A stretch of 64,000 nucleotides of DNA, from the NCBI GenBank assembly GCA_905479745.1, contig CAJQNO010000027.1:250-64249 (forward strand), read 5' to 3'. Source of the stretch: an uncultured Flavobacteriaceae bacterium. Its GTDB lineage: Bacteria; Bacteroidota; Bacteroidia; Flavobacteriales; Flavobacteriaceae. Below are positions 45,312 through 59,581 of the stretch, in pieces. Both the position numbers and the translations under genes were made by a program. Below the pieces are notes generated by a model that saw nothing but the letters and a program-made list of their open reading frames with translations, did no database searches and was not told where the DNA came from. The stretch's first letter is position 1; each line of letters opens with the position of its first letter.

Positions 45312-46580
45312 ATGAGAATTGTTACCGCCGAAGAAGCCGTTTCCATAGTAAAGAGCGGCGATACTGTTTTTTTTCAGGGCGCCGCCATGACCCCTAATCT
45401 CCTAATAGATAAGCTTTGCGACAGATACAAGGATCTGCAAGATGTAAAGATCGTCCAGATCCATACTGAAGGGAAAGCAAAGTATATGGAAGAGCCTTAC
45501 GCTTCTTCTTTTAATATTTACAGTTGCTTTGTTGGTGGCAATGTGCGCAAGGGTATTAATAATAACAAGGGAGACTATATCCCAATTTTCCTGAGCGAGA
45601 TACACCTGTTATTTCGACGAAACATCATTTCACTGGACGTGGCTTTTATACAGGTTTCTCCACCTGATAAACATGGATATTGTTCCTTGGGTGTATCAGT
45701 AGACATAGCATTACCCGCACTCGAAAAGGCAAAAAAAGTTGTAGCATTGGTAAATCCCCGTGTTCCCAGAACTCATGGTGATGGCATCATACACATCAAC
45801 TCAATTGATTTTGGAGTACATATAGATACTCCGCTTCATTATGCCTCTATTACCGAACCCACAGAAGTTGAGGAGAAGATCGGCCATCATGTTGCCGGAC
45901 TTGTAGAGGACGGTGCCACCTTACAAATGGGGATTGGGAATATCCCCAATGCCGTACTTAAAAACCTCACAAATCATAAAGGTCTGGGGATTGATACAGA
46001 AATGTTCAGTGACGGAGTTCTACCCTTAATCGAACTAGGGGTGATCACCGGAGAGCATAAGAAAATAAAACAGGGGAAGATCGTAACCTGCTTTGCTGTA
46101 GGAACACAGCGATTGTATGATTTTGTGGACGACAATCCCAGTGTTCATTTTAAAGAGGCCGCTTATACCAACGACACGCATAGAATTAGAATACAACCAA
46201 AAGTAACTGCGATCAACAGTGCGATTGAAATTGATTTCACAGGGCAGGTTTGTGCCGATACAATTGGTCCGTATCAATTTTCGGGAGTTGGCGGACAAAT
46301 GGATTTTATCCGGGGTGCGAGCTTGTCTGAAGGTGGCAAACCCATTATTGCCATGCCGTCTACAACTGCCAAAGGAATCTCGAAGATCGTCCCATACCTG
46401 AAGCAAGGTGCCGGGGTGACCACTACAAGAGCGCATGTACATTACGTAGCCACAGAATATGGTGTTGTGAACCTGTTTGGAAAGAGTTTGAAAGAGCGAG
46501 CTCGGGCTTTAATTTCCATCGCACATCCCGATCACCAGGAACAGCTGGAAAGGGAAATGTTTGAAAGATTTAAACTATAA
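45312..46580 (+). CDS. acetyl-CoA hydrolase/transferase family protein (4-hydroxybutyrate CoA-transferase-like)
   Basis: 422 aa. LQMGIGNIPNAV, TEMFSDG, SGVGGQMDF motifs. Confidence 0.85.
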   Translation: MRIVTAEEAVSIVKSGDTVFFQGAAMTPNLLIDKLCDRYKDLQDVKIVQIHTEGKAKYMEEPYASSFNIYSCFVGGNVRKGINNNKGDYIPIFLSEIHLLFRRNIISLDVAFIQVSPPDKHGYCSLGVSVDIALPALEKAKKVVALVNPRVPRTHGDGIIHINSIDFGVHIDTPLHYASITEPTEVEEKIGHHVAGLVEDGATLQMGIGNIPNAVLKNLTNHKGLGIDTEMFSDGVLPLIELGVITGEHKKIKQGKIVTCFAVGTQRLYDFVDDNPSVHFKEAAYTNDTHRIRIQPKVTAINSAIEIDFTGQVCADTIGPYQFSGVGGQMDFIRGASLSEGGKPIIAMPSTTAKGISKIVPYLKQGAGVTTTRAHVHYVATEYGVVNLFGKSLKERARALISIAHPDHQEQLEREMFERFKL

Positions 46581-46582
46581 AA

Positions 46583-46607
46583 AATCCCCCGGTGATTTCG
46601 GGGGATC
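46583..46607. terminator. bidirectional terminator hairpin between convergent genes
   Basis: ATCCCCCG (46584-46591) pairs with CGGGGGAT (46599-46606). A-run on the left, T/A on the right. Confidence 0.6.
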
Positions 46608-47192
46608 TTATAAAAGGATGTTGAGTCGATCAGACAACCATTTAGGAATTGAACTTTCGCGTACGGGTTCTTTCGGGGTTTCTTCGATCTTGTGTTTTCT
46701 GTTGTGTTCCACTTCACGCTTTTTCTTAACCCTTGAAATTACCTCATCCACGTAATATATAAATTCACCATTCATAGCAAATTGCTTTGCGTCTTTAAGC
46801 GAATCCAAAGATTCATTATATAGGGCTGTCACTTCAAAAAGCTGTGCCTGTGCAAGTTCAATTCCTGCTCTGTCGATACCTTTTACGGTCCTTGCGAACT
46901 CGATCAACTTCTGAGCTTCGTCGAAATCTTCGTAATTGATGAGCAAGCGGATAAAATCCGGATAGACATTTGGAATGTCCAGACGGCTTGCTAAAGCCCG
47001 CTCATAGTAAGATCTCGCTACTTCATATTCACCAAGTTGTTCATCCTGGATCTTTGCCATGAGGCATAAGGCCCGAACGTTTTCAGGGTCGTATGTTAAA
47101 GCATAGTTCAAACTCTCAAGAGCTTGCGCCAATTCGTAAGGATATGCTTCCAATGCTTTAAAAAGGTATAAATTAGATGTATTAGCCTCCAT
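46608..47192 (-). CDS. TPR-like repeat protein, unknown function
   Basis: 194 aa. Repeated A..YE.AL...P motifs and a basic C-terminal tail. Confidence 0.6.
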   Translation of the reverse strand: MEANTSNLYLFKALEAYPYELAQALESLNYALTYDPENVRALCLMAKIQDEQLGEYEVARSYYERALASRLDIPNVYPDFIRLLINYEDFDEAQKLIEFARTVKGIDRAGIELAQAQLFEVTALYNESLDSLKDAKQFAMNGEFIYYVDEVISRVKKKREVEHNRKHKIEETPKEPVRESSIPKWLSDRLNILL

Positions 47193-47259
47193 TCTGTTTT
47201 AATTAAATGATTTGAATTTGTCTTTCCTTCTGTTACAGAATACGCCTTAATTACGAGGC

Positions 47260-47294
47260 AAAAAAAATCCGAAACAGTAAGGTGTGCTTCGGAT
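47260..47294 (-). terminator. putative Rho-independent terminator (minus strand)
   Basis: Plus strand reads A8-ATCCGAA(A)CA...TG(C)TTCGGAT. On the minus strand the stem is followed by T8. Confidence 0.45.
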
Positions 47295-47688
47295 ATTAAA
47301 TAGCAATATTGATACTGCTAATATTTGTTCCGAAGCCGGGTCGTTACTTGCTTTTCAAATACATGAAAATCGGTCTGGTACATAAATAAACACATAGCTT
47401 CTATAATTTTAATTTTTAATTCAAAAGAAACCATCCTGGTTGTAGCTACTACTTTTAGTCTTGATAATTTCGGATGCAAAGATGAGAACAAATTTTAAAT
47501 TTCAAAACAAATTAATCAATATATTTATTTGATTGTCAAGTAGTTAAAAAAATTTTATGCAATAGAGATCCTGTCCGCGATCTGCGGATCGGTGGACAAT
47601 CTCACAACGATTTGTGCATTAGCCGGTTAACTTTCAAAAGTGAATTCTTTTATGTTTTTGTTTACACATTCATATTCAGAAAAAAAAT

Positions 47689-47718
47689 TAAAAAAAAACG
47701 TCCGAAAATATCGGACGT
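47689..47718 (-). terminator. Rho-independent terminator (minus strand)
   Basis: ACGTCCGA (47698-47705), loop AAATA, TCGGACGT (47711-47718). Read on the minus strand this 8-bp GC-rich stem is followed by T8-9. Confidence 0.6.
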
Positions 47719-48300
47719 CCCTAAAATATATGATTCTGTACAATATTTGTCTCATAATTTTAATACATAACGCCCGGTATCGCACGACCATTTTACGGTT
47801 GCACGATAGTTAAACAGGATTAAAATCCCAAGAGGACTATGTATTCTATTAGTGTTCATTGCTTTGCAAAAATAGAAGAATTTTCGCATTAGGCAAATAG
47901 GAAAGTTGTCGAACAACATCGTAAATCAAGTACTTAAAAGCATCTAATTTATTTTCACCGAACTGTTATATAACGAATTACGTATATTTACTTATAGACG
48001 ATTGTATAATTACTTCATACTATTACTTTGCGAAATTCCTTAGTTCATGGAGTGTGTTTTTTTGTGACAGCAGTATTTATTTCGCAAGGGTCACTCAATT
48101 CTATTAGAAAATTAATCTTTTACAAATAAAGATATGATATCGAAAGGGTTTTTCATTTCTAACACATATCCTAAATGGATACTCGAGCTCCCAGTGAAAT
48201 CTGCTGATACCATACCAAGGTATTTGTACTAAGTATAGATAGAATAAAAAAATAAAACCCATCGATAACCTTCTAGAAGGCAACCGATAATTATATTAAT

Positions 48301-49110
48301 ATGGCATTAAAATATTATAAGTTTCTCGAATTAGAAATAACTCATTCGTTTTATCCGAATGGTGTTTCCGAACATTTTAAAATTTCTCCTTTGCCAATTT
48401 CGCTAAGGGATATTCAGAATTATAATATCAAGATAAATGTAAATAGGAACATATTTATCTTTTACTGTGGTATTTCAGAAACCGAAAATTTCGATCTGGC
48501 TGAAGCACTCAATGGGTTAAGTACACTTTATTTTCAGTTCTATCACGAGGATATTAACTTTAAAAACTACACCTCCAATATCCCGTTGAACAATACCGAT
48601 ATCATATACCTGAAAAACAGCCCCGGAGAAGAAGAGTTACAGCTCGATCACGCTCCGCCAAATGGAGATCTCCCACTTTATACAATAGGTGTGTTACTGC
48701 TTGATATCCATGATATAGTAAACGAGAATGATCCCAACAAAAAATTAACACTCTCTTTTACATCCCGCGAATTACTGTGGCAATATCAAATTATCTTAAG
48801 GGAGAATATGAAAGTGGAAGAGGGCGATCTTAAGATCGAAGGTATCTATAATGAGACTTACGAAGGGCCCGTAAAAAAACAATTTTCCCATGATGTTTCC
48901 GCGTTGGTAATGACATCGAATATTCCCTTACCATTGAGGTACACTATAGCGAATCATCCCTTATTAAAACTAAGTTACACCAATACACAACTCAATGTAA
49001 TAAAAGACTTAGAAATTAAACTGCCTAATCAAATTCCGGAGTCCATTCTTGGAGAGGAACGAGACGGAGCAGTTATTCCTTTACTAGCAACAGCGATAAT
49101 ATATGTATAA
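48301..49110 (+). CDS. hypothetical protein, first gene of the CIS-like operon
   Basis: 269-aa ORF ending 27 nt before the sheath gene. I recognise no motif. It is not DUF4255-like or gp25-like by eye. Confidence 0.6.
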   Translation: MALKYYKFLELEITHSFYPNGVSEHFKISPLPISLRDIQNYNIKINVNRNIFIFYCGISETENFDLAEALNGLSTLYFQFYHEDINFKNYTSNIPLNNTDIIYLKNSPGEEELQLDHAPPNGDLPLYTIGVLLLDIHDIVNENDPNKKLTLSFTSRELLWQYQIILRENMKVEEGDLKIEGIYNETYEGPVKKQFSHDVSALVMTSNIPLPLRYTIANHPLLKLSYTNTQLNVIKDLEIKLPNQIPESILGEERDGAVIPLLATAIIYV

Positions 49111-49137
49111 CTTAAATCCAGAAAGTTGTAGGAAACT

Positions 49138-50640
49138 ATGAGAACTCCCGGTGTATATATAAACGAAATTAGGGCTATTGGAAAATTGGTAGTACCGGTA
49201 CCTACCTCTATTCCGGCATTTATCGGATATACCCAGAACACCAGCTTTGAAGGTAAAAGCCTTATCAACCGGGCGGTTAGGATAACATCGCTAAATGATT
49301 TTGTCAATAAATTTGGTGAGGACTTTCCTGAGATAAAGTTTAGAATTTCTGAAGAAACAACTGCGCCAGATTATATCGATGCGCTAGGACAAGGCTACAA
49401 AATAACAGTTTCCGGTATGTTCTATAGGATGCTTGCCGCAATTAAATTCTTTTACATGAATGGAGGCTCTGAATGTTATGTAATAAGTATAGGCGATTAC
49501 AATTCAACTTTCCAAAAAGATGATTTTATAAGTGCCATTGATCTTCTGGTTGATGAACCGGATCCGTCTCTCTTAGTCATTCCCGAAGCCACAATATCCG
49601 GTTCACAAAGCGCCTACGACATTCAGAACCACATGATCGCACACTGCAGTGAAATAAAAAACAAGTTTGCGATTCTGGATGTGCCTGAGGGGTACAAGGA
49701 CCTTTTATCCTCTCCTAATTGTGTTGATAATTTTCGCAATGGGGTTGGAGGAATTCTTTCTGAAAACAATAGTTATGCTGCAGCATACTATCCTTGGTTG
49801 AACACTTCAGTTCACGATATGTCACAGGTTTCTTTCATCAATATTTCTCATGACTCTTATCCTCTTATCGCATCTCTACTTAGCTCAGAATTTACCGATT
49901 CAAGCGGTAACATCGATTCTGTGATCACCCAACAGATATCGTGCTTCCTGAATAATGGCAATAGTGATAACGGAACTTTTCAATTAGCGGATGCCGATAC
50001 CAATTTTAGGAATCTTAGTATACAATATCGATTGGTGCTTGAAAATGTACTTAAAAAATTGAACCTCATTCCTCCTTCATCGGCTATGGCTGGTATCTAT
50101 ACCATCATAGACAGCAGTAGAGGTGTTTGGAAGGCTCCCGCCAATGTTACTATACAAGGGGTTATATCACCCTCGGTCGCAATAGATAACAATATGCAGG
50201 TAGATCTTAACAGTCCTTTAAATGGTAAATCGGTCTGTGCTATACGGGCTTTTGTAGGAAGAGGAAATTTAGTATGGGGCGCCAGGACTCTGGATAGTAA
50301 TTCAAGTGAATGGAGATATATCAATGTTCGTCGCACATCGATCTTTATCGAACAATCTGTTAAAGAAGCTATCAAAGCTTTCATCTTCGAACCCAATGAT
50401 GCGAACACCTGGGCACAGGTTGAAACAATGATCTCTAATTTCCTGAATTCCCTATGGCGAGAGGGAGCGCTTATAGGCACTAAACCATCAGAATCTTATG
50501 TGGTGAACATCGGACTTGGTAAAACTATGACAGCTCAGGATATACAAGAAGGGATAATGCGAATATCCCTGGCTATTGCACTAATACGCCCTGCAGAATT
50601 TGTTGTAATTTCAGTCGAACAGAAAATGCAGGAATCCTAA
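49138..50640 (+). CDS. contractile tail sheath protein (phage tail sheath family, Afp2-4/Pvc2-4-like)
   Basis: 500 aa. N-terminus MRTPGVYINEI. C-terminal conserved block LVWGARTLDSNSSEWRYINVRRTSIFIEQSV...FEPNDANTWAQV...FLNSLWREGALIG. Confidence 0.9.
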   Translation: MRTPGVYINEIRAIGKLVVPVPTSIPAFIGYTQNTSFEGKSLINRAVRITSLNDFVNKFGEDFPEIKFRISEETTAPDYIDALGQGYKITVSGMFYRMLAAIKFFYMNGGSECYVISIGDYNSTFQKDDFISAIDLLVDEPDPSLLVIPEATISGSQSAYDIQNHMIAHCSEIKNKFAILDVPEGYKDLLSSPNCVDNFRNGVGGILSENNSYAAAYYPWLNTSVHDMSQVSFINISHDSYPLIASLLSSEFTDSSGNIDSVITQQISCFLNNGNSDNGTFQLADADTNFRNLSIQYRLVLENVLKKLNLIPPSSAMAGIYTIIDSSRGVWKAPANVTIQGVISPSVAIDNNMQVDLNSPLNGKSVCAIRAFVGRGNLVWGARTLDSNSSEWRYINVRRTSIFIEQSVKEAIKAFIFEPNDANTWAQVETMISNFLNSLWREGALIGTKPSESYVVNIGLGKTMTAQDIQEGIMRISLAIALIRPAEFVVISVEQKMQES

Positions 50641-50660
50641 TTAATTTAAAAACACTTTTT

Positions 50661-51125
50661 ATGGCAGATGATGGATCAAAACAAGGGAGTACATGGCCCT
50701 TACCAAAGTTTTACTTCTCGGTAAAACTAGGTTCCCAGGATAATATGGTTTCTTTTCAGGAAGTTTCAGGACTGGACACCGAAACACAGCCTATCGAATA
50801 CAGGCATGGTAATAACAAAGAGTTCTCTACCATAAAGTTGCCGGGTATAGTGAAAACCGGTAATGTAACCCTCAAAAAAGGAATTTTTGTAAACGACAAT
50901 AATTTCTGGAAGTGGTATGACGCGATAAAGATGAATACCATAAAACGGGAGACGGTAGTGATACAGTTACTGGACGAATCGGCCAAGCCAACGATGACCT
51001 GGACTCTCAGCAACGCGTGGCCTACCAAAATTACCGGTACCGATATGAAATCGGATGCCAATGAGGTGGCCGTGGAAACACTCGAACTTGCTCACGAAGG
51101 ACTCACTATTGCAAATGGCGGATAA
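50661..51125 (+). CDS. tail tube protein (T4 gp19-like, Afp1/5-like)
   Basis: 154 aa. WPLPKFYFSVKLGS...VSFQEVSGLDTETQPIEYRHGNN...LPGIVKTGNVTLKKG. Confidence 0.9.
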   Translation: MADDGSKQGSTWPLPKFYFSVKLGSQDNMVSFQEVSGLDTETQPIEYRHGNNKEFSTIKLPGIVKTGNVTLKKGIFVNDNNFWKWYDAIKMNTIKRETVVIQLLDESAKPTMTWTLSNAWPTKITGTDMKSDANEVAVETLELAHEGLTIANGG

Positions 51126-51127
51126 TT

Positions 51128-51592
51128 ATGAGAAATGAGCATCCCCTTGCAGCATTTTATTTTCGATTGAGCTTTAACGGCCTTTCGGGATCGGTCGATT
51201 CTTCGTTCAAAGAAGTCTCCGGAATTAGTATGGAGATGGATACAGAGGAAATTACAGAAGGTGGGAATAATAGTTTTAAACATCGTGTTCCTACCTCTGT
51301 AAAATTCTCGAATCTTGTCCTCAAACGGGGAATGGTCTCTAAAGACTCCCCGCTGGTGGATTGGTGTATCAAAACTTTTGGAGGAGGTCTTGCTGAATAT
51401 GTGGAAACCAAGAATATCGTGGTTAGTTTATTAGATGAAAATGGCGATCCTATAAAAGCCTGGAGCTTTGCAAATGCCTGGCCCGTAAAATGGGCGGCAT
51501 CAGATCTCAATTCGATGAATAACGAAGTGGCCATCGAGACCCTGGAATTTTCGTATAGTTATTTTAAAGAAATTATTGCCAACAATCCCTGA
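51128..51592 (+). CDS. tail tube protein paralog (T4 gp19-like)
   Basis: 154 aa. PLAAFYFRLSF...SFKEVSGISMEMDTEEITEGGNN...FSNLVLKRG. Same length and pattern as the preceding gene. Confidence 0.9.
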   Translation: MRNEHPLAAFYFRLSFNGLSGSVDSSFKEVSGISMEMDTEEITEGGNNSFKHRVPTSVKFSNLVLKRGMVSKDSPLVDWCIKTFGGGLAEYVETKNIVVSLLDENGDPIKAWSFANAWPVKWAASDLNSMNNEVAIETLEFSYSYFKEIIANNP

Positions 51593-51676
51593 TCGTATTC
51601 AACGACAGGTGATAGTATTTAGAACATGCAAATAACCCCGGCTTGAAAAACAATACGGCCGAAATAAAAAAACAAT

Positions 51677-53458
51677 ATGTCTGTATCACCATTAATAGAA
51701 GAAACCAATCTAATTTCATTCAATATCATTTCGGGCGGGAAGGAGATTCCCGCAACTTATGAAGTAGTAAGTATTCGCACCGAACAATTTTTAAATAGGA
51801 TCTCGCATGCCGAGATCGTACTTATTGATGGGGACGCAACCAAACAAACTTTTGCGGTAACAGATTCGGATGTATTTAAACCAGGTGCCGAAATTGAGAT
51901 TAAATTAGGGTATCACAGCAAAAACGATTCAGTATTTAAAGGGGTTGTAGTTAAACAAATGATAAGACTTGATGGCCAGAGTTCAAGGCTACATGTAATT
52001 TGTAAGGATAAGGCGCTGCAACTAACTATTAACAGAAACAATAATATTTTTACCGATAGTACCGATAGTGCAGCTATAGAAAGTATTGTGGGAAAAACCA
52101 GCTTGAGTTCGTCCGTGGCCTCTACTCCAATAGAACACAAGGAGATCGTTCAATATTATACTACAGACTGGGACTTCATTGTAAACCGATCTGAAATCAA
52201 CGGCTTGGTTGTGGTCACAGATAGCGGCAAACTCACCGTGGCGAAGCCCGACGTTAGCGGGTCGCCTGCATTACATGTACAATATGGTTACGACATTATC
52301 GATTTCGATGGTGAGATAGACGCAACGCATCAATACTCTGAAGTGCAGGGCAACGCATGGGATATGAGTTCGCAGGCTGTGATAAGCGCGTCGTCATCGG
52401 AGCCTTCGATGAACCAACAGGGCGATATTAGTGGATCGACTCTGGCAAAAGTTTTAAGTGCCGGGACACTGAATTTAAGTTCCAATGTAACAATCGAACA
52501 AGAGGATATAAAGGGATGGACAGATGCAGCTTTATTAAGATCGAGACTGTCGAGGTTTCGAGGAACCCTCACCTTTCAGGGTTCTACTCTGGCAAAGGTA
52601 AATTCGACGATCAAGTTGGATGGCCTTGGCAATAGATTTAATGGAAACGCTTTTATATCGGGAGTGATACATTCTATTGAAGATGGAATGTGGCATACGG
52701 AAGTGCAGCTGGGATTATCTCCAAGGTTGTTTGTTGAAGAAAATGAAGTTATGGCTCCTGCCGCCGCCGGATTGATCCCAGGAATACGAGGATTGCATAC
52801 TGGTATTGTAAAGAAAACCTATGAGGACCCGGATAACGAATTCAGGGTACAGGTGGAGATCCCAATTTTGGGTGTGGAAAGAAAAATGGTGTGGGCAAGG
52901 CTGGCCACCTTTTACACGGGTAATACCTTCGGAGCTTATTTCATGCCGGAAGTGGATGACGAAGTAATCCTGGGCTTTATGAATGATGACCCGAGATTTC
53001 CAATTATTCTGGGAAGTGTTTTCAGTAGTTCCATCCCTGCCCCTGAAACACCCGACGAGCAAAACACGATCAAAACACTTATAACTAGTAGTAAACTTCA
53101 GTTAAAATTTGACGATGAGAACAAGATAATCACTCTGATAACACCTGGAGGTAATTCTATCGTTATTAGCGACCAGTATGAAGGAATCTCCATAACCGAT
53201 CAAAATAGTAATAAGATAGAAATGAACTCGAGTGGGATTAATCTTGAAAGTGGGTCGGATATTACTCTGAAAGCGACAAATTCGGTAAACATAAAAGGAA
53301 GTTCGATCTTCTTAGAAGGCAGTGAATCTATAAACAGTACTGGTGGCATGGTGTCTATTTCTGGAAAAATAAGTACTAGTATCAAAGGAGATGCCGAATG
53401 CTCGGTTTCCAGTAGCGGAGAGATGAGTATAAAAGGTGCAATGGTAATGGTTAACTAA
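51677..53458 (+). CDS. VgrG/Afp8-like spike-hub protein (gp27-like hub + gp5 OB fold + C-terminal beta-helix)
   Basis: 593 aa. gp5-type OB block WARLATFYTGNTFGAYFMPEVDDEVILGFMNDDPRFPIILGSVFS. The C-terminus has repetitive beta-helix-like triplets (ITLITPGGNSIVISD...INLESGSDITLKATNSVNIKGSSIFLEGS...). Confidence 0.85.
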   Translation: MSVSPLIEETNLISFNIISGGKEIPATYEVVSIRTEQFLNRISHAEIVLIDGDATKQTFAVTDSDVFKPGAEIEIKLGYHSKNDSVFKGVVVKQMIRLDGQSSRLHVICKDKALQLTINRNNNIFTDSTDSAAIESIVGKTSLSSSVASTPIEHKEIVQYYTTDWDFIVNRSEINGLVVVTDSGKLTVAKPDVSGSPALHVQYGYDIIDFDGEIDATHQYSEVQGNAWDMSSQAVISASSSEPSMNQQGDISGSTLAKVLSAGTLNLSSNVTIEQEDIKGWTDAALLRSRLSRFRGTLTFQGSTLAKVNSTIKLDGLGNRFNGNAFISGVIHSIEDGMWHTEVQLGLSPRLFVEENEVMAPAAAGLIPGIRGLHTGIVKKTYEDPDNEFRVQVEIPILGVERKMVWARLATFYTGNTFGAYFMPEVDDEVILGFMNDDPRFPIILGSVFSSSIPAPETPDEQNTIKTLITSSKLQLKFDDENKIITLITPGGNSIVISDQYEGISITDQNSNKIEMNSSGINLESGSDITLKATNSVNIKGSSIFLEGSESINSTGGMVSISGKISTSIKGDAECSVSSSGEMSIKGAMVMVN

Positions 53459-53538
53459 AATTGAGTTTTTGCTAGTGTTAAACAGAATCAATGGATGAAA
53501 TTTATAAATGACATGGAGAAAAATCTAAATATCAGCTA

Positions 53539-54042
53539 ATGAGTCCAGTTTTTACAAATTACACCGGACTCATCATTCTATCACCTTTTCTGGAATTATT
53601 ATTTCCGAAATGCGGACTCATGGAAGAAGGAAGTTTCAGAAATAAAGAAAGCAGAGTAAGAGCTGTTCAGTTACTGGATTATGCGGCAACAGCCGATACC
53701 AATTCGCAGGAGCATGAATTGCTCATCCCAAAAGTGCTTTGCGGTATTCCTGTTTCAGAGCCTATTGATGTTTCCTATCACCTAACAGAAGAACATAAAC
53801 TAATAGTGGACGACCTGTTACTGGCTGTGACTCAACAATGGCGTGGTATGGAGAATACTTCGATTACTGCTTTACGTGAAACTTTCCTTCAGCGAGATGG
53901 AAAACTAGAGGAACTGGACGAACATTTCTACATCAAGGTAGAACAGCGATCGTATGATGTCTTATTAGACAGGATTCCATGGAATATTAGTACGATAAAA
54001 CTAAATTGGATAAATAAACCAATAGAAATAGAATGGAGATGA
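53539..54042 (+). CDS. CIS tape-measure-protein C-terminal-domain homolog (domain only, 167 aa)
   Basis: GLIILSPFLELLF..., RAVQLLDYAAT, EHELLIPKVLCGIP, ALRETFLQRDGKL, YDVLLDRIPWNISTIKLNWINKPIEIEW. This matches the conserved C-terminal module of eCIS tape measure proteins as I remember it. No longer ORF is possible upstream, because stops lie in frame. Confidence 0.55.
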   Translation: MSPVFTNYTGLIILSPFLELLFPKCGLMEEGSFRNKESRVRAVQLLDYAATADTNSQEHELLIPKVLCGIPVSEPIDVSYHLTEEHKLIVDDLLLAVTQQWRGMENTSITALRETFLQRDGKLEELDEHFYIKVEQRSYDVLLDRIPWNISTIKLNWINKPIEIEWR

Positions 54043-55373
54043 TAAAAGCAATCGCCAGTTCCCTGGAACGCGAGATCGGTTGGTTTGAGGCGGTAGTGAA
54101 CACCGCCCTTTCCATCTATTTTCAGAATGAACATGTTGAAGAAAGTGTCTACGATCACACACCACCTGCACTTGATAAGGACAAATCGGCTTATGCCGAA
54201 CTAATCAAAGAACTCAAACTCGGCTTCGAGGATCGCATCATATTGATCTTAGGATTACTCCCGATATTAAAACCTCAGGCACTGGATGTATTTCTTATAA
54301 AAAATCAGAATCTAAACAGCGAATTCTCCGAGTTCGGTGGGATCAATGAAACAAGAACCTCCGGCTTTAACCCAAGCCTGATGACAGCCTGCTTCATCCT
54401 AACAGGAAGTTCTTTGGAAGAGCGTTTGCGCCTTATGAAATTGTTTGAGAGGGATCATGTGCTGTTTAAAAAAGGAATTCTCGATTGTGATTACAGACAG
54501 GAGTTTGGTTTACAACAGCGCTTGATTGTTTCTCATGAATTCATAGAATTACTTACTGAAGGTAAAATGAAGTTGCCGGAATTCAGTTTCGGATTTCCCA
54601 TCAGGCAAATTTCTACTAAACTGGACTGGGACGACCTAATTATCGAGCAGCAGGTACGTATTAAACTGGAAGAGATTCAGGAATGGCTAAAACATAGTGA
54701 ACACATCCTGGAAAACTGGGGATTACACAAAACCCTAAAGAAAGGGTATCGTGCGCTGTTTTACGGGCCTCCGGGCACGGGTAAAACCCTGGCCTCAACC
54801 CTGATCGGTAAAACAACCAAACGTCCCGTTTTCAGGATCGATCTGTCCCTCTTAAATTCTAAATACATTGGTGAGACCGAAAAAAATCTTACACAACTCT
54901 TCAATGAGGCTGAAAATAAAGACTGGATATTGTTCTTCGATGAGGCCGATGCGTTGTTCGGGAAAAGAACTCAGGTAAAATCGGCCAACGACAGGTACAT
55001 GAATCAGGAAGTGTCTTATTTGCTGCAGCGTATTGAGGAATTTTCAGGGCTAGTGATACTTTCAAGTAATTTACATTCCAACATCGATGATGCCTTTAGG
55101 AGAAGGTTTCAGAGTTTGGTATACTTTCCAAGGCCTCAGAAGAAAGAGCGGCTACTTCTGTGGAAACGGCTGTTCGAAAATTCGTTCTCACTTGATGGTG
55201 ATGTCGACCTTACCAACTTGGCTGAGAATTATGAATTAACTCGAGGTGAAATGATCAATATTCAGCGGTACTGTGCATTAGTCGCTGCCGGAAGGGGTGA
55301 TAAAAAGATCGGACTACAGGATCTACTTTCCGGGATCCGAAGAGAATATAGTAAGTCTAATAAAACAATTTAG
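54033..55373 (+). CDS. AAA+ ATPase (Afp15/Pvc15-like CIS assembly ATPase)
   Basis: 446 aa. Walker A GPPGTGKTLAS, Walker B ILFFDEADALFGKR, AAA lid. Overlaps the previous gene by 10 nt. Confidence 0.88.
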   Translation: MEMIKAIASSLEREIGWFEAVVNTALSIYFQNEHVEESVYDHTPPALDKDKSAYAELIKELKLGFEDRIILILGLLPILKPQALDVFLIKNQNLNSEFSEFGGINETRTSGFNPSLMTACFILTGSSLEERLRLMKLFERDHVLFKKGILDCDYRQEFGLQQRLIVSHEFIELLTEGKMKLPEFSFGFPIRQISTKLDWDDLIIEQQVRIKLEEIQEWLKHSEHILENWGLHKTLKKGYRALFYGPPGTGKTLASTLIGKTTKRPVFRIDLSLLNSKYIGETEKNLTQLFNEAENKDWILFFDEADALFGKRTQVKSANDRYMNQEVSYLLQRIEEFSGLVILSSNLHSNIDDAFRRRFQSLVYFPRPQKKERLLLWKRLFENSFSLDGDVDLTNLAENYELTRGEMINIQRYCALVAAGRGDKKIGLQDLLSGIRREYSKSNKTI

Positions 55374-55375
55374 TT

Positions 55376-55765
55376 ATGCCACAACAAGTCTGTTTGGGAG
55401 CCACAATGACCTGCTCCTTCGGAGTCGCACCATCATCACTTATAGTACTACCGCAGAATCGCGTATTGACCAGTAAAATGCCGGCAGCCAATATCATGGA
55501 TAACAAGCCCATAGTAAATATACCGCCGTTCGGATTGTGTTCCTCTATGGCGAACCCACAGGTTGCCGCTACGACGAACGCCGCCTTGGGTGTGCTCACC
55601 CCTATGCCTTGTGTTCCTGCTACGGTCACACCCTGGGCACCCGGAAGTCCGACGGTTTTGATTGGAGGCGTACCTGCCTTAACCAATAACTGTACGCTTA
55701 ATTGTAAATGGGGAGGAGTGATCAGTCTGGATACTGCGGGTCAGGTTCAGGTGGTGGTACCATAA
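55376..55765 (+). CDS. DUF4280 (PAAR-like) domain protein
   Basis: 129 aa. LGATMTCSFGVAPSSLIVLP, NIPPFGLCSSMANPQVAA, PCVPATVTPWAPGSPTVLIGGVPAL, CKWGGVISL. Confidence 0.85.
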   Translation: MPQQVCLGATMTCSFGVAPSSLIVLPQNRVLTSKMPAANIMDNKPIVNIPPFGLCSSMANPQVAATTNAALGVLTPMPCVPATVTPWAPGSPTVLIGGVPALTNNCTLNCKWGGVISLDTAGQVQVVVP

Positions 55766-55768: not shown

Positions 55769-55796
55769 AAGCCTCCCCGTTGGGAAGGCTTATTTT
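55769..55796. terminator. bidirectional Rho-independent terminator closing the CIS operon and ssb
   Basis: A7-AGCCTCCC-CGTT-GGGAAGGCT-TATTTTT. The stem has one bulge and sits between convergent genes. Confidence 0.6.
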
Positions 55797-56148: not shown

Positions 56149-56647
56149 AATAATTAATTTAAGGGTTTAACAATTGATACTATCGAACGTCTTTCATTCG
56201 ACAAGGCAAACATATAACCGCTTTTAATATTCATTCGGTTAAGAAATATTTACTTTCGTTTATAGTCGTTTGTAAACGTTTGTACGAGGCAACCATTTTC
56301 TGAAGAATCGGGACTTATATACAACTTACCACAAAGTAGAATAGAGATTTTATGTTAATCCAGGATTGGATTTTTTTGAGATATACAGGCCATACGGTCT
56401 ATGGTTATCCTTTTAAGGTACAGAGCATAAGCTATCGCCAGTCTTATAGACTAAACCGCTTCCGTATGTCATTGAACTTATTACGTCTTACTGATTCCCT
56501 TACCTTTTGATGGCGGTTCCCCCAGTTTACGCCCAAAAACGCAACGTAATGCTATTTATAATTATTCTAAATAAACAGTTAAAATGTACTATATTGCCGA
56601 TTAATGTGTTAATTTGCTATGAAACTACTCAACAACCAATCTTTATA

Positions 56648-56833
56648 ATGGCCGATAATTCCGAAATTCTGCAAGCTATTGCGGACTTGAAGAAGGAGGT
56701 AATCGATTTAAAAAGCGATATGCAATCCGGCTTCAGGAGCGTTAATAAGCGATTAGACGGTATCGAGAATGAGTTAAGAAAAATTGACACAGTTCTTGGT
56801 TATTCAGAACAATACAATAACATTCCTACTTAA
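56648..56833 (+). CDS. small coiled-coil hypothetical protein
   Basis: 61 aa from the internal ATG (MADNSEILQAIADLKKEVIDLKSDMQ...). The upstream part of the 56507 ORF looks non-coding. Confidence 0.35.
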   Translation: MADNSEILQAIADLKKEVIDLKSDMQSGFRSVNKRLDGIENELRKIDTVLGYSEQYNNIPT

Positions 56834-56981
56834 ATTATTTAGGTTCGTTATTATTTAGATTCCTTTTCCTTCTTCTTAGGAACGGAAACCTTTAAAACTT
56901 CATCGAGCGTACCTTCGATCTTTAGCTTATCGTTCTCACGCTCATTTATCTTGTCCTCATTCATGTTATAAATATATCATA

Positions 56982-57623
56982 TTATTTCCACAATGCAGGG
57001 ATTATAGCAGTATCTGATCCATCCGATTTAACAACTGTGTCTGGCATAAAAGAGTTTTCAAATTTCTTGAAATTATCCCTAAGTAATACAACTCTTTTGT
57101 TTGGATTAGCATGAGCCAAATCATTGCTGAAACTTGAAGGAGGAAAGTATATTTTTATTTTTTTGTTTTTGAAATTTTGCTTTATAAATTCAATTGGGGG
57201 GATTAAATCACTATCAGCAGTTACCAAAATAATTTTATCAACAACATCTAACGCACAATCTCCTAATAAATGCGTAGCAATATTTACGTCTGTTCTTTTT
57301 TCTTCAGGTTTTGTAAAATGAGTGTTACAATTATAGCACTGTATATCCTTTTCAATGTATTTGCCTCTAATAATTTGAAATGAATTCCCATTAATCAAAT
57401 CATTAGCTTTAAAAAGAGCACTTTGCCGTGAATTTTTACCTGAACTAAGTGGCGATGCCGTAAAGTACTTAACCTTTACAAATTCATCATCCGGGCCTAA
57501 AAATTGTTTAAATAATGCGACAAAGTCTATCCAATAGCATTGCCTCCATTTAGGATTCATTCTACATTGATTTTTTAATCCATAATAGAAGTTAAACCCA
57601 TCTACGTAGAAAATTGTTCTCAT
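56982..57623 (-). CDS. NYN domain-containing protein (PIN-like RNase fold, LabA/DUF88-type)
   Basis: 213 aa. IFYVDGFNFYYG, VKYFTA, EKRTDVNIATHLL, IILVTADSDLIPPIE. Confidence 0.8.
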   Translation of the reverse strand: MRTIFYVDGFNFYYGLKNQCRMNPKWRQCYWIDFVALFKQFLGPDDEFVKVKYFTASPLSSGKNSRQSALFKANDLINGNSFQIIRGKYIEKDIQCYNCNTHFTKPEEKRTDVNIATHLLGDCALDVVDKIILVTADSDLIPPIEFIKQNFKNKKIKIYFPPSSFSNDLAHANPNKRVVLLRDNFKKFENSFMPDTVVKSDGSDTAIIPALWK

Positions 57624-57633
57624 ATCTCCCTAA

Positions 57634-57662
57634 TAAAAAAAAAGCTGTCTCTAGGAGACAGC
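57634..57662 (-). terminator. Rho-independent terminator (minus strand) between the IS1595 element and the NYN gene
   Basis: Plus strand is A10-GCTGTCTC-TAG-GAGACAGC. On the minus strand the stem is followed by T10, only ~10 nt before the NYN start codon. Confidence 0.6.
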
Positions 57663-57782
57663 CGAACTCTACCAAACGATAGAGCGATGCTTTATGTGGA
57701 CAAATGTACAAAAATCGCTCCAAAAACCAAATTATTCATACAAAATTTTTGCATATTGTCAAAATTTTAACATTGTAAGTTC

Positions 57783-58745
57783 TTAACATCCAGATATTAA
57801 GGATATATAAGTCAATCTACTCTCGCTTTGCCCTAAGAATATCTCAAAACGCTGCTGGCTCGTTAATTCACGAGTATTGTACCTATTTGCGTACTCGTCT
57901 AAGTAACGCTCTAAGTGCTTTTCACTAACGTGATGGTAAATACCATTAATTCCTCGCTTTAACTGGCTCCAAAAGTTCTCTATGGTGTTAGTGTGGCAGT
58001 TACCTACTACGTACTGACTAGCTGAATGTACAACTGTCTTATGCGTAAATGTTCTGCCTACTCTGTGATAAATGCCACTTTCGTCTGTATGCACCTCTGA
58101 ACCCTTAGCAATATGTTTTCCTAGTAGCGGTAAAATTTCTTCTTGGGTGGCACGTGAAACGTGCTTTACAATGATGTCCCCGCCACGCTCAACAAAGCCT
58201 ACTACCATTTTCTTAGGTTGGTAAGGAGTACCGTCATTTCGTAAGTCTGGATTCTCATTAGAGCGTTGTTTCCCGAAATGTTTGTTACCCTCTTTACCTC
58301 CTATATAGGCTTCGTCAATCTCTACCATATTGGTAGTACCTATCATTTTAGGTGCTTTCTCTCTTAGCATTTCACGGATTCTATGAAGTACAAACCATGC
58401 TGTTTTTTGTGTAATTCCCAGATCACTAGCTAATTGAACGCTAGAAATACCTTTCTTGTGGTTAGTAGCCAGGAATATAGCAGCAAACCACGTTCTAAGA
58501 GGAATTTTAGAGTTCTCGAAGATAGTACCCACCTTCACAGTAAAATCTTTCTTACACTCTTTATTACGACATCTGTACCCTCGTTTAGTTTTATAAGGGC
58601 TCTCACTATTACAATGAGGACATACAGGATTATCACCCCAACGAATCTGCTCGTAATATTCAATACAAGTACTTTCTTCTCTGAAGTAGTCTAAAAGCTG
58701 TGGAAGTGATTTGAAATTCATTGTTTTCTTAGTTTTGTTATACAA
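57783..58745 (-). CDS. IS1595 family transposase (ISXO2-like DDE domain with N-terminal zinc ribbon)
   Basis: 320 aa. WGDNPVCPHCNSESPYKTKRGYRCRNKECKKDFTVKVGTIFENSKIPLRTWF, VEIDEAYIGG, HTDESGIY, HTNTIENFWSQLKR. Confidence 0.88.
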   Translation of the reverse strand: MYNKTKKTMNFKSLPQLLDYFREESTCIEYYEQIRWGDNPVCPHCNSESPYKTKRGYRCRNKECKKDFTVKVGTIFENSKIPLRTWFAAIFLATNHKKGISSVQLASDLGITQKTAWFVLHRIREMLREKAPKMIGTTNMVEIDEAYIGGKEGNKHFGKQRSNENPDLRNDGTPYQPKKMVVGFVERGGDIIVKHVSRATQEEILPLLGKHIAKGSEVHTDESGIYHRVGRTFTHKTVVHSASQYVVGNCHTNTIENFWSQLKRGINGIYHHVSEKHLERYLDEYANRYNTRELTSQQRFEIFLGQSESRLTYISLISGC

Positions 58746-58747
58746 AT

Positions 58748-58799
58748 ATAACCGAATATATTGATATAAACAAATAATAATACAATTATATTCGGTTAT
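58748..58799. repeat. perfect 13-bp inverted repeat just upstream of the transposase start
   Basis: ATAACCGAATATA (58748-58760) and TATATTCGGTTAT (58787-58799), with a 26-nt spacer. Confidence 0.8.
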
Positions 58800-58827
58800 T
58801 TTGATATTATTGTACTATATTTGCCCT

Positions 58828-59034
58828 ATGCCTACATACAAAGAGCGACAGGAAAACTTAGAATACTTCGTTTTATTAGATGGAGATAATGTGCTTGGAA
58901 CTTTCGGTAACTTAAAAAAGGTTTGTGATTTCCTGGACGGAAAAGATTTCTATTCTTATAATACAATCGTGCGCAAAAAAACCTACCCCGTGATCTACAA
59001 AAACTACAAGGTGTTTAAGGTTAAGCATTATTAA
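58828..59034 (+). CDS. small hypothetical protein
   Basis: 68 aa from the ATG right after the putative IS end (MPTYKERQENLEYFVLLDGDNVLGTFGNLKKV...). No family recognised. Confidence 0.35.
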   Translation: MPTYKERQENLEYFVLLDGDNVLGTFGNLKKVCDFLDGKDFYSYNTIVRKKTYPVIYKNYKVFKVKHY

Positions 59035-59261: not shown

Positions 59262-59361
59262 AAGTTATCAATAATCTAAGTATTTATCATTTTTTGTTAT
59301 ATACTTATTTATCTGTCAATATTAAAACAAAAAAAAATGATGCGAATTAAAAAATTATCCT

Positions 59362-59369
59362 TACATTTG
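59362..59369 (+). promoter_or_regulatory. Bacteroidota-type -7 promoter box TACATTTG (TAnnTTTG)
   Basis: Exact match to the TAnnTTTG consensus. No clear -33 TTG, and a chance match in AT-rich DNA is possible. Confidence 0.25.
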
Positions 59370-59371
59370 AG

Positions 59372-59528: not shown

Positions 59529-59581
59529 TTAAAACAAATATACTACTAAAGCCCCTTGATCTAGGGGTTAAACCGCTGTGG

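What the first reader, a model, noticed from the sequence alone, without database searches (positions are those of the whole stretch)
48301..55765. Compact 8-gene contractile-injection-system operon with no baseplate, cap, fibre or effector genes
The eight genes are tightly packed, with gaps of at most ~85 nt, one 10-nt overlap, no internal stops, a 1.1 kb gap upstream and a terminator downstream. They encode an unknown 269-aa protein, a tail sheath, two gp19-like tube paralogs, a VgrG/Afp8-like spike, a tape-measure C-domain protein, an Afp15-like AAA+ ATPase and a DUF4280 PAAR-like tip. Every characterised CIS (Afp, PVC, MAC, AlgoCIS, T6SS-iv, R-pyocins) also needs further parts, and I recognise none of them here. 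The missing parts are gp25-like (Afp9), gp6/baseplate-J-like (Afp11) and gp7-like (Afp12) wedge proteins, a tube initiator (Afp7), and a DUF4255 terminator cap (Afp16). They usually also have fibres and cargo. The intactness of all eight ORFs, including the assembly-only factors, argues against simple decay. I see three possibilities. (i) The locus is split, with the baseplate module elsewhere. (ii) It is a remnant truncated by the adjacent mobile DNA. (iii) It is a genuinely minimal needle-and-sheath module that uses the unknown 269-aa protein or host structures as its platform.
Basis: partly seen in the sequence, partly recalled or inferred. Interest (0 to 1): 0.8.

Follow-up and report, generated by a model that had tools for sequence, protein, structure and literature searches.

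The report
Baseplate-less deletion allele of flavobacterial eCIS
The eight genes are what remains of an 18-gene phage-tail-like injection operon after its whole baseplate, cap and most of its length ruler were deleted; sister strains still carry the full operon at the same chromosomal spot, yet the cut-down version is old and still under purifying selection.

Summary
Eight tightly packed, intact genes lie at 48301-55765, and no baseplate gene is found in the 64-kb window or 10 kb beyond its right end.

The "unknown" 269-aa protein is a cap adaptor (AlgoCIS Alg16B / Anabaena All3326 fold). It is not a new platform.

A sister strain (L015/L043) has flanking genes 97-100% identical at protein level. 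In the same slot (TPR | … | SSB) it carries a full AlgoCIS-like operon: GH18, a 105-aa protein, cap, adaptor, sheath(s), tubes, DUF5908 plug, CIS_tube initiator, VgrG, gp25, Baseplate_J-like, a 251-aa and a 968-aa protein, a 1130-aa tape measure, ATPase, DUF4280 and an 88-aa ORF.

The window is an internally deleted allele of that operon, and deletion scars are visible. It is not fresh decay:
- The scars are shared with L007/L009.
- Its short sheath forms a clade (81% bootstrap) with the 9-gene locus of Aureitalea sp. L0-47.
- Compact-versus-compact pN/pS is 0.23 (p = 4e-39).
- The window is a mosaic of compact-type and full-type segments.

Further-reduced versions exist (L016, L042, L040).

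Verdict: a new variant of a known kind. It is a selected, baseplate-less eCIS derivative of unknown residual function, and very unlikely to be an autonomous injector.

The parts
47193..48300 (.). Upstream non-coding region of the operon. Positions 47193-47875 are conserved with the region upstream of the full operon. Positions 48030-48163 and 48230-48300 are leftovers of the 3' end of the 105-aa gene and of the two ends of the cap gene.
   Evidence: blastn against L015: window 45000-48037 matches L015 468-3509 at 91%, 48030-48163 matches L015 5632-5768, and 48230-49262 matches L015 6248-7281. The L015 cap gene lies at about 5740-6312. No cap-like ORF or tblastn hit is left in the window.
48301..49110 (+). 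Cap adaptor (Alg16B / All3326-like), 269 aa
   Evidence: The AF2 model has pLDDT 77. Foldseek against the PDB gives 7b5i_AB (Anabaena CIS cap complex) at E = 3e-8 and 7adz_1A (AlgoCIS cap adaptor) at E = 4.7e-8; the next hit is at 4e-4. In L012, L014, L010, L046 and L047 the gene lies directly after a Pvc16_N cap gene. The family has 485 representatives.
49138..50640 (+). Sheath, 500 aa, short form without the insertion domain of the full-locus sheaths
   Evidence: Pfam Phage_sheath_1C. PDB sequence hits are 9r9h_T at 1.5e-132, AlgoCIS Alg2 at 1.5e-91 and All3325. It groups with the other compact-locus sheaths at 81% bootstrap. This is a compact-type segment, 67-97% nt identical to L007/L009 with no blastn match to L015.
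50661..51125 (+). Inner tube protein (Alg1/Afp1 type), 154 aa
   Evidence: Pfam Phage_T4_gp19 at 1e-47. PDB hits are 9r9h_B at 2.5e-65 and Alg1 (7adz_1a) at 1e-47. It is 93.5% identical to the Aureitalea copy.
51128..51592 (+). Second tube paralogue (Alg5/Afp5/Pvc5 type, the first ring above the initiator), 154 aa. The acidic C-terminal tail of the 168-aa full-locus version is lost.
   Evidence: The best PDB hit is 7aeb_Y (a chain of the AlgoCIS entries 7aeb/7aef, deposited under the name 'Phospholipid/glycerol acyltransferase'; I read it as Alg5 because Pvc5 and Afp5 follow it) at 1.4e-34, then All3323, Pvc5 and Afp5. C-termini are compared.
51593..51676 (.). Deletion scar J1. In the full operon the DUF5908 plug and the 218-aa CIS_tube initiator lie here.
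   Evidence: The window matches L043 1-490 and resumes at L043 1363. The scar sequence is homologous in L007/L009 and absent from L043.
51677..53458 (+). Central spike (VgrG / Alg8 / Afp8 type), 593 aa
   Evidence: Pfam Phage_base_V and Phage_GPD. PDB hits are All3320 at 3e-156, 9rce_F and Alg8 (7aef_q). It is 92% identical to the L015/L043 spike.
53459..53538 (.). Deletion scar J2. About 10.6 kb of the full operon is missing here: gp25, Baseplate_J-like 1205 aa, 251 aa, 968 aa and tape-measure codons 1-948.
   Evidence: The window resumes at L043 13791. tblastn of the L043 tape measure (aa 949-1130) matches window 53494-54039, so 15 former codons now lie upstream of the new ATG. About 25 nt resembling the gp25 start are also present. 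L007/L009 have the same scar.
53539..54042 (+). C-terminal domain of the tape measure as a stand-alone 167-aa protein
   Evidence: Pfam CIS_TMP positions 302-463 of 463, E = 9e-63. The AF2 model has pLDDT 89.5 and pTM 0.87 and is a compact globular domain. There is no solved relative by sequence or by fold. It is 92% identical to the C-terminus of the 1130-aa L043 tape measure.
54033..55373 (+). AAA+ ATPase (Alg15/Afp15 type), 446 aa. The Walker A (GPPGTGKT) and Walker B (FFDEAD) motifs are intact.
   Evidence: Pfam AAA at 1e-27; sequence. It has the same length and position as the ATPase of the full loci. This is a compact-type segment. In AlgoCIS this ATPase is a non-structural factor needed for cargo loading (preprint 10.64898/2026.05.27.728243).
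55376..55765 (+). PAAR-like spike tip (DUF4280), 129 aa
   Evidence: Pfam DUF4280 at 7e-37. It is the second-to-last gene of the full loci, followed there only by a short 82-88-aa ORF.
55769..55791 (.). Two-way terminator hairpin between the operon and the convergent SSB gene

Best explanation
This is the compact allele of an AlgoCIS-like (subtype Ib) extracellular contractile injection system operon.

What is shown. In this group of marine Flavobacteriaceae, the slot between the TPR/acetyl-CoA-hydrolase genes and SSB holds one of two things. One is a full operon of about 18 genes: GH18, a 105-aa membrane protein, cap, cap adaptor, sheath(s), tube, tube2, DUF5908 plug, CIS_tube initiator, spike, gp25, Baseplate_J-like, a 251-aa and a 968-aa protein, a tape measure of about 1130 aa, ATPase, DUF4280 tip and an 88-aa ORF. 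The other is a version from which several internal blocks have been deleted.

The window carries the deleted version. It keeps cap adaptor, sheath, tube, tube2, spike, the last 167 codons of the tape measure (with a new ATG), ATPase and tip. It has lost everything that in known systems nucleates the tube and the extended sheath (plug, initiator, gp25, wedge). It has also lost the cap, 85% of the length ruler and the GH18 gene.

The allele is old. It has the same scars as L007/L009 and belongs to the same sheath lineage as the Aureitalea 9-gene locus. It exchanges segments with full alleles by homologous recombination, and its genes evolve under purifying selection.

What is inferred. By the assembly route of every studied CIS, these eight proteins cannot build a loaded, extended, firing particle on their own, so this is not an autonomous injector. 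The proteins are still made and used, most probably for a role that does not need a baseplate. The parts that are never lost across the reduction series are adaptor, sheath, the two tube proteins and the tape-measure C-domain. That points to some sheath-tube assembly rather than to puncturing. What that role is remains unknown.
For: Full operon in the same slot in a sister strain. L015 has MetRS, AcCoA hydrolase and TPR at 97% aa identity, then the full locus. L043 has the distal half ending TMP-1130, ATPase-446, DUF4280-129, 88 aa | SSB (100% aa) | Rce1-like. Complete reference architectures are in L046 and L047.

Deletion junctions and remnants are documented.

The allele is old:
- J1 and J2 are homologous in the window and L007/L009, although their genes differ by dS 0.5-2.4.
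- The compact-type sheaths of the window, L007, L012, L014 and L040 form a clade at 81% bootstrap, apart from full-locus sheaths.
- Aureitalea sp. L0-47 (L012) has cap plus the same eight genes in the same synteny.

The window is a mosaic. In a sliding window, full-type segments (92-100% nt identity to L015/L043) alternate with compact-type segments, and the scars lie inside compact-type segments.

Selection:
- dN/dS is 0.03-0.24 for all eight genes against L007/L009.
- L007 versus L009, both compact, pooled: pN/pS = 0.23, p = 4e-39 against neutrality.
- On the window branch S:N is 40:20, not different from the full-allele branch at 38:11.

The cap-adaptor identity rests. All parts are nearest to AlgoCIS or to the Anabaena thylakoid-anchored CIS (PDB 7b5h/7b5i) among solved structures.

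Loss of the plug (Alg6) abolishes AlgoCIS and MAC particles, and loss of the cap adaptor gives misassembled particles (PMC8894135).
Against: Purifying selection implies a use that I cannot name.

Part of the low dN/dS could be imported from full alleles by the recombination I see. This argument is weaker for the sheath and the ATPase/tip segments, for which no full-allele source is known.

I could not scan whole genomes of compact-allele carriers, so a distant baseplate set elsewhere (for example T6SS-iii or a prophage) is not excluded.

The direction of segment exchange between full and compact alleles is not resolved. The single origin of the compact lineage rests on an NJ tree with 81% support and on scars that can be aligned only within the window/L007 group.
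Confidence: 0.7

Rival explanations
1. Neutral remnant. The locus is non-functional debris of a deleted eCIS operon. The ORFs look constrained only because homologous recombination keeps importing selected sequence from full alleles in the same population, and because deletions rather than point mutations dominate the decay.
For: About half of the locus consists of full-type patches that are more similar to L015/L043 (dS 0.04-0.25) than the AcCoA flank is (dS 0.59). There is a graded reduction series with obvious debris. L042 has a cap fragment and a 53-aa DUF4280 fragment. L040 has lost spike, ATPase and tip. L016 has lost cap, ATPase and wedge.
Against: The compact-type segments have no known full-allele source, yet dN/dS is 0.12 for the sheath at dS 1.4, 0.24 for the ATPase and 0.17 for the tip. 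L007 versus L009 gives pN/pS 0.23 with p = 4e-39. No frameshift or stop occurs in any of the eight genes in the window, L007, L008, L009, L012 or L014. The tape-measure C-domain has acquired its own start codon and folds confidently.
Confidence: 0.15
2. Split system. The eight genes supply needle, sheath and loader, while a baseplate/cap module encoded elsewhere in the genome completes a conventional CIS.
For: Scattered Afp-like genes are known in Bacteroidota symbionts such as Cardinium and Amoebophilus (my own knowledge). Whole genomes could not be scanned here.
Against: In sister strains the cognate baseplate genes lie inside this very operon at this very site, so carriers of the compact allele have lost them from their normal place. 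There are none in the 64-kb window plus 10 kb beyond it. A search with the 1205-aa Baseplate_J-like protein returned 34 homologues down to 26% identity. None was from Aureitalea sp. L0-47, whose proteins do carry names in that database. The genome-contig scan for the adaptor found one locus per carrier genome.
Confidence: 0.08
3. Genuinely minimal contractile machine. Spike, tip, tape-measure C-domain and tube2 nucleate a short tube. The AlgoCIS ruler coefficient of 0.229 nm per residue would give about 38 nm. The sheath, held by the cap adaptor, assembles and contracts without a wedge.
For: The architecture persists under selection across two genus-level groups. The retained set is a coherent needle-plus-sheath set. 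The tape-measure C-domain is kept with its own start in every reduced locus. The ruler coefficient comes from the preprint 10.64898/2026.05.27.728243.
Against: Every studied CIS needs gp25 and the wedge to start an extended sheath, and needs the plug and initiator to start the tube (PMC8894135). The window also lacks the cap. Spike, tip and ATPase are dispensable in L040, L042 and L016. There are no fibres, no anchor and no cargo gene.
Confidence: 0.07

Closest known systems
AlgoCIS of Algoriphagus machipongonensis (eCIS subtype Ib; PDB 7ADZ/7AEB/7AEF)
   Same: It has the same kinds of parts, and AlgoCIS is among the nearest solved homologues for tube, tube2, sheath and spike. It shares the two-piece cap design, a short Pvc16_N-only cap plus a separate cap adaptor, whose fold the 269-aa protein shares. 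The full alleles (L043, L046, L047) have the same overall gene set, including the DUF5908 plug and the AAA+ loader.
   Different: The window lacks Alg16A (cap), Alg6 (plug), Alg7 (initiator), Alg9 (gp25), Alg11 and Alg12 (wedge and cage), fibres, cargo and all but the last 167 residues of Alg14. Its sheath lacks the large insertion domain.
Thylakoid-anchored CIS of Anabaena PCC 7120 (PDB 7B5H/7B5I)
   Same: It gives the best or near-best hits for spike (All3320, 3e-156), adaptor (All3326, Foldseek 3e-8), sheath (All3325) and tubes.
   Different: It is a complete system with a baseplate and a membrane anchor, from another phylum.
Afp / PVC (eCIS subtype Ia)
   Same: Homologous sheath, Afp1/Afp5 tubes, Afp8 spike, Afp14 C-terminal domain, Afp15 ATPase and Afp10-like tip.
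   Different: In Afp16/Pvc16 the cap domains are fused in one protein. These are complete 16-gene operons with Afp7, 9, 11, 12 and 13. Sequence similarity is much lower.
Full allele of the same operon in sister strains (L015 = ENA OWNT01000087; L043 = Logan SRR23287148_7823)
   Same: The same chromosomal slot and flanks. Adaptor, tube1, tube2, spike and tape-measure C-domain are 92-98% identical at protein level.
   Different: It carries about ten more genes (about 13-14 kb). Its sheath(s) are only 45-50% identical and its ATPase and tip 76-80% identical.

Membership tests
eCIS (Afp/PVC-like superfamily as defined in dbeCIS, PMC6899500) | Contractile sheath protein (Afp2-4 type) | tested here: met
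   Phage_sheath_1C; PDB sequence hits to Alg2, Pvc2-4 and Afp2-4.
eCIS (Afp/PVC-like superfamily as defined in dbeCIS, PMC6899500) | gp19-like inner tube proteins (Afp1/Afp5) | tested here: met
eCIS (Afp/PVC-like superfamily as defined in dbeCIS, PMC6899500) | VgrG-like spike (Afp8) | tested here: met
eCIS (Afp/PVC-like superfamily as defined in dbeCIS, PMC6899500) | Baseplate_J-like wedge protein (Afp11), named by dbeCIS as the component that separates eCIS from T6SS | tested here: not met
   No Pfam hit in the locus or its neighbours. tblastn with five Afp11-type proteins from related full loci finds nothing in the 64-kb window.
eCIS (Afp/PVC-like superfamily as defined in dbeCIS, PMC6899500) | gp25-like sheath initiator (Afp9) and tube initiator (Afp7 / CIS_tube) | tested here: not met
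   Only about 25 nt resembling the gp25 start remain in scar J2.
eCIS (Afp/PVC-like superfamily as defined in dbeCIS, PMC6899500) | Terminator cap (Afp16 / Pvc16_N) | tested here: not met
   No hit in the window. The cap is present in the Aureitalea-type compact loci L012 and L014 and in the full loci.
eCIS (Afp/PVC-like superfamily as defined in dbeCIS, PMC6899500) | Full-length tape measure (Afp14) and AAA+ ATPase (Afp15) | tested here: inconclusive
   The ATPase is present and intact. The tape measure is reduced to its C-terminal 167 aa.
Subtype Ib lineage (AlgoCIS / MAC / T6SS-iv), membership by descent | Separate cap adaptor (Alg16B-like), and nearest relatives among AlgoCIS-type parts | tested here: met
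   The locus is allelic to a complete AlgoCIS-like operon.
Type VI secretion system (i-iii) | TssB/TssC two-protein sheath, TssE/F/G/K baseplate, membrane complex, ClpV | tested here: not met
   There is a single phage-type sheath. No T6SS families appear in Pfam scans of the locus and its neighbours. The rest of the genome was not testable.

The most novel reading that the evidence does not exclude
A lineage of CIS-derived gene sets has shed the whole baseplate, and in places also the spike, tip and ATPase. It has nevertheless been kept by selection across genera of marine Flavobacteriaceae. The reason would be that cap adaptor, sheath, tube proteins and the tape-measure C-domain form a working structure that needs no baseplate. 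That structure could be a wedge-free contractile device or a non-injecting sheath-tube assembly with a new cellular role.
Probability: 0.2. Interest if true: 0.85.

Novelty: new variant of a known kind. Interest (0 to 1): 0.55.

Why it matters
Surveys of eCIS loci require the baseplate genes, so loci like this one are filtered out and have not been described, as far as I could find.

The locus shows that an eCIS operon can exist in one population as two long-lived, recombining alleles, one complete and one without a baseplate. The cut-down allele is still under purifying selection.

That gives a natural experiment on which CIS parts have value without the baseplate. It also offers a tractable case, because Aureitalea sp. 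L0-47 is the one carrier here that comes from a named, RefSeq-annotated strain record rather than a MAG or metagenome. With it one can ask whether sheath and tube can assemble, or do anything useful, without gp25, wedge, plug and initiator.

The stand-alone tape-measure C-domain is confidently folded and has no solved relative. It recurs next to an Hcp gene in a Janthinobacterium genome, which hints at a role of its own.

If the allele turns out to be inert, the value is smaller: a well-documented example of stepwise eCIS decay and of recombination between alleles.

Tried and rejected
(1) A decayed cap gene in the 1.1-kb gap. tblastn with four cap proteins gave nothing significant. The only weak hit (E = 0.022 in a tiny search space) was not collinear with a second fragment.

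(2) The 500-aa sheath as a chimera made by a deletion between the two L015 sheath paralogues. Rejected: identity along the protein is flat at about 50% to both, and the short sheaths form their own clade.

(3) Rfam on 46500-48400 gave only a sub-threshold NsiR1 match (E = 0.45).

(4) The sigma-70 promoter scan found no enrichment (27 found, 25.8 expected). It is also not suited to Bacteroidota promoters.

(5) The tape-measure C-domain has no hit against PDB sequences and no Foldseek hit below E = 0.4.

(6) The viral-contig scan with the sheath alignment gave one unrelated weak hit.

(7) I tried to link the unnamed NCBI Baseplate_J hits to carrier genomes of the compact allele. The listing of cluster members gave no accessions. 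Of these hits, P0176, P0198 and P0204 are from other assemblies. P0203 was not looked up.

(8) A literature search for described baseplate-less or degenerate eCIS loci gave nothing relevant. One query was too loose to be useful.

(10) The idea that adjacent mobile DNA truncated the locus. Rejected: the IS1595/NYN block (56308-60376) lies beyond SSB and is a separate insertion relative to L043.

Full report
OBSERVATION

The gaps are 27, 20, 2, 84, 80 and 2 nt, there is one 10-nt overlap, and the upstream gap is 1108 nt. Pfam confirms sheath, two gp19-type tube proteins, a Phage_base_V/GPD spike and an AAA ATPase. It also confirms a DUF4280 tip and a 167-aa protein that matches only positions 302-463 of the 463-position CIS_TMP model. 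The 269-aa protein has no Pfam hit. A hairpin with T-runs on both sides lies at 55769-55791, between the operon and the convergent SSB gene.

The neighbours are housekeeping genes. Upstream are Mfd, LD-carboxypeptidase, DUF1800/DUF1501, MetRS, acetyl-CoA hydrolase and a TPR protein. Downstream are SSB, an NYN protein, an IS1595 transposase, an Rce1-like protease and a methyltransferase. The window is part of a 106-kb marine metagenome scaffold, SOLA22-1 scaffold_119.

THE 269-AA PROTEIN IS A CAP ADAPTOR

It has only six word-sharing homologues among 5.8 billion clusters. A profile search of 1.84 billion representatives, however, finds a family of 485. An AlphaFold2 model (pLDDT 77) hits two PDB chains far above everything else. 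These are 7b5i_AB from the Anabaena CIS cap complex (E = 3e-8) and 7adz_1A, the AlgoCIS "cap adaptor protein" (E = 4.7e-8). The next hit is at 4e-4. The same two chains are also the only CIS entries in a profile-versus-PDB sequence search, though weakly.

The AlgoCIS paper describes a short cap, Alg16A, that equals only the N-terminal domain of Pvc16, plus a separate adaptor, Alg16B (PMC8894135). In relatives the homologue of the 269-aa gene lies directly after a 190-aa Pvc16_N gene. The unknown protein is therefore a known cap component, not a candidate platform.

A FULL OPERON OCCUPIES THE SAME SLOT IN A SISTER STRAIN

A metagenome scan with a sheath alignment gave 25 loci. I annotated them by ORF calling plus blastp, and by Pfam.

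- L015, from a 292-kb seawater contig, has MetRS, acetyl-CoA hydrolase and the TPR gene at 97% protein identity to the window. Behind the TPR gene it has GH18 (595 aa), a 105-aa protein, a cap and an adaptor 94% identical to the window's. Then come a 764-aa sheath, tube, a 538-aa sheath, tube and tube2 (97%). The locus continues with a 218-aa CIS_tube initiator, spike (92%), GPW_gp25, a 1205-aa Baseplate_J-like protein and more.
- L043 was found through a 99%-identical copy of that 1205-aa protein. It shows the rest: proteins of 251 and 968 aa, a 1130-aa tape measure, a 446-aa ATPase, a 129-aa DUF4280 and an 88-aa ORF. Then come SSB (100% protein identity) and the Rce1-like gene.
- L046 and L047 give the complete architecture in other genera.

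Nucleotide alignment of the window to L015/L043 and inspection of the junctions show what is missing:

- GH18 and most of the 105-aa gene.
- The interior of the cap gene.
- The plug and the initiator. The deletion starts inside the 3' end of tube2, which is 154 aa instead of 168 aa.
- A 10.6-kb block running from gp25 into tape-measure codon 948.

Scar J2 still holds about 25 nt like the gp25 start. It also holds 15 former tape-measure codons upstream of the new ATG. tblastn with all the missing proteins finds nothing else in the 64-kb window, and the next 10 kb of the scaffold is housekeeping. The locus is thus a deletion derivative of a conventional AlgoCIS-like operon. The adjacent IS/NYN block is an unrelated 4-kb insertion beyond SSB.

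IT IS NOT RECENT DEBRIS

The same eight-gene architecture with the same flanks is present in an NCBI MAG (L007/L011), L008, L009 and L013. Scars J1 and J2 of the window and of L007/L009 are homologous to each other. Their genes nevertheless differ by dS 0.5-2.4.

Aureitalea sp. L0-47 (L012) and L014 have the same set plus the cap, in the same synteny. In an NJ tree the short sheaths of the window, L007, L012, L014 and L040 form a clade (81% bootstrap), apart from full-locus sheaths. That fits a single old compact lineage spanning two genus-level groups, whose flanking proteins are 74-86% identical.

Other reductions look independent:

- L016 keeps the plug and a 391-aa mini tape measure (N-terminal 198 aa joined to the C-domain), but has no cap, ATPase or wedge.
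- L042 has a long full-type sheath, a cap fragment and a broken DUF4280.
- L040, which belongs to the compact lineage, has further lost spike, ATPase and tip.

These are documented. Adaptor, sheath, both tube genes and the tape-measure C-domain are kept in every case.

THE WINDOW IS A MOSAIC

A sliding-window comparison shows alternating segment types. TPR, the first 680 nt of the gap, adaptor, tube1/tube2, most of the spike, the tape-measure C-domain and SSB are 92-100% identical to L015/L043. That is closer than the acetyl-CoA-hydrolase flank (89% nt, dS 0.59).

The sheath, scar J1, the spike 3' end with scar J2, and ATPase plus tip are closer to L007/L009. These segments are either unalignable with the full allele or only 68-83% identical to it. 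Full and compact alleles of one species therefore exchange homologous segments, while the deletions stay embedded in compact-type DNA.

Among full-length tape measures, the methionine that serves as the compact start codon occurs only in L043. This hints that some exchange ran from the compact allele to the full one.

SELECTION

- All eight genes give dN/dS of 0.03-0.24 against L007/L009.
- L007 versus L009, both compact, pooled over eight genes: 183 synonymous and 148 non-synonymous differences, pN/pS = 0.23, p = 4e-39 against neutrality.
- After polarising with L007/L009, the window branch has S:N = 40:20 and the full-allele branch 38:11 (Fisher p = 0.29).

Recombination with full alleles could import some of this constraint. 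The sheath (omega 0.12 at dS 1.4) and the ATPase/tip segments have no known full-allele source, so that explanation is weaker for them.

HOW IT PROBABLY WORKS

Shown: descent, the deletions, the age of the allele, recombination and purifying selection.

From established knowledge: in AlgoCIS and MACs the plug is essential for any particle, and the adaptor stabilises the cap and the last sheath ring (PMC8894135). The ATPase is a non-structural cargo loader, and the tape measure sets length at 0.229 nm per residue (preprint 10.64898/2026.05.27.728243). In all studied contractile tails, gp25 and the wedge start the extended sheath.

Inferred: without plug, initiator, gp25, wedge, cap and ruler, the eight proteins cannot make a loaded, extended, firing particle by the known route. 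I therefore rate an autonomous injector at about 7%. I rate a split system at about 8%. The cognate baseplate genes normally sit inside this operon. In addition, no Aureitalea sp. L0-47 protein appeared among 34 homologues of the Baseplate_J-like protein, which reached down to 26% identity, although that genome's proteins are named in the database. A purely neutral remnant I rate at about 15%.

The best-supported statement is that this is a long-lived, selected, baseplate-less allele. Its products are used for something that needs no baseplate, probably an assembly built around sheath, tube, adaptor and the tape-measure C-domain. The nature of that use is unknown.

COMPARISON AND NOVELTY

By descent the locus belongs to the AlgoCIS/MAC/T6SS-iv (subtype Ib) lineage. 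It fails the defining eCIS features Afp11, Afp9, Afp7 and, in this window, Afp16. It should therefore not be filed as an eCIS in the functional sense. I found no description of such loci, and dbeCIS-type surveys would exclude them by design. I classify it as a new variant of a known kind and score interest at 0.55.

LIMITS

- No whole-genome scan of a carrier of the compact allele was possible.
- No expression data are available.
- The trees are NJ on a few sequences.
- L015 and L043 are two contigs from different samples that I treat as one allele type on the basis of 99% identity in the shared genes.

Noticed in passing
window 47193-47875: About 680 nt of non-coding DNA upstream of the operon is 89-99% identical to L015 over most of its length (81% at its 3' edge) and about 73% to L007/L009. 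It contains two terminator-like hairpins on the minus strand (47267-47294 and 47694-47722) and a 55-aa minus-strand ORF (47752-47919) that was called as a gene in the source contig. It may encode small minus-strand transcripts or the regulatory region of the operon. Rfam finds nothing.
   Followed up: partly
window 56308-60376: A 4-kb block with an NYN-domain gene, an IS1595-family transposase and several small ORFs is inserted between SSB and the Rce1-like gene, relative to L043, where those two genes are adjacent. L007 has a similar IS1595 copy in the same place.
   Followed up: partly
L039 9110-11393 (Janthinobacterium sp. MDB2-8, JBNYXY010000008.1): A 176-aa protein consisting only of the tape-measure C-domain (36% identical to the window's) lies between a 191-aa T6SS_HCP gene and a 273-aa unknown gene, after a 90-aa Septknot gene. 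No other CIS genes lie within 10 kb. This suggests the C-domain can pair with a tube protein outside any eCIS operon.
   Followed up: no
L015 7145-12101: The full allele has a tandem sheath-tube duplication: a 764-aa sheath, tube, a 538-aa sheath, tube. The two tube copies are 99% identical at nucleotide level, while the two sheaths are highly diverged. L017 shows the same arrangement.
   Followed up: no
L010 2162-4099; L018 9989-12130: Full-locus sheaths carry a large insertion after about residue 70. In L010 it is made of repeats of the type 'K(K/N)LYGPK…W', probably a surface-exposed domain. The compact-type sheaths lack it.
   Followed up: no
L043 10947-14339; L046 17352-20867; L047 17294-21343: The full-locus tape measures are 1130-1349 aa. 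With the AlgoCIS coefficient of 0.229 nm per residue they predict particles of about 260-310 nm, more than twice the length of AlgoCIS. Only L043 has a Met at the boundary of the C-domain, where the compact allele starts translation.
   Followed up: partly
L015 3634-5421; L018 6162-8003; L046 386-2128; L047 592-2145: Every full locus of this family starts with a GH18 (chitinase-like) protein that has a C-terminal membrane segment, followed by a membrane protein of about 106 aa. This could be an effector, a release factor or a target-related factor. Both are absent from the compact loci examined (window, L007-L009, L012, L014, L016, L040).
   Followed up: no
window 49138-51125 versus PDB 9r9h / 9r9n / 9rce: The closest solved sheath (E = 1.5e-132, 519 aa) and tube (E = 2.5e-65) come from recent PDB entries whose organism and system I could not identify with these tools. 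They are much closer than AlgoCIS.
   Followed up: no
L007 versus L009, flanks: The TPR gene differs by dS 0.78 between L007 and L009, while SSB differs by 0.06 and the CIS genes by 0.02-0.31. Recombination therefore also reshuffles the flanks of this slot.
   Followed up: no
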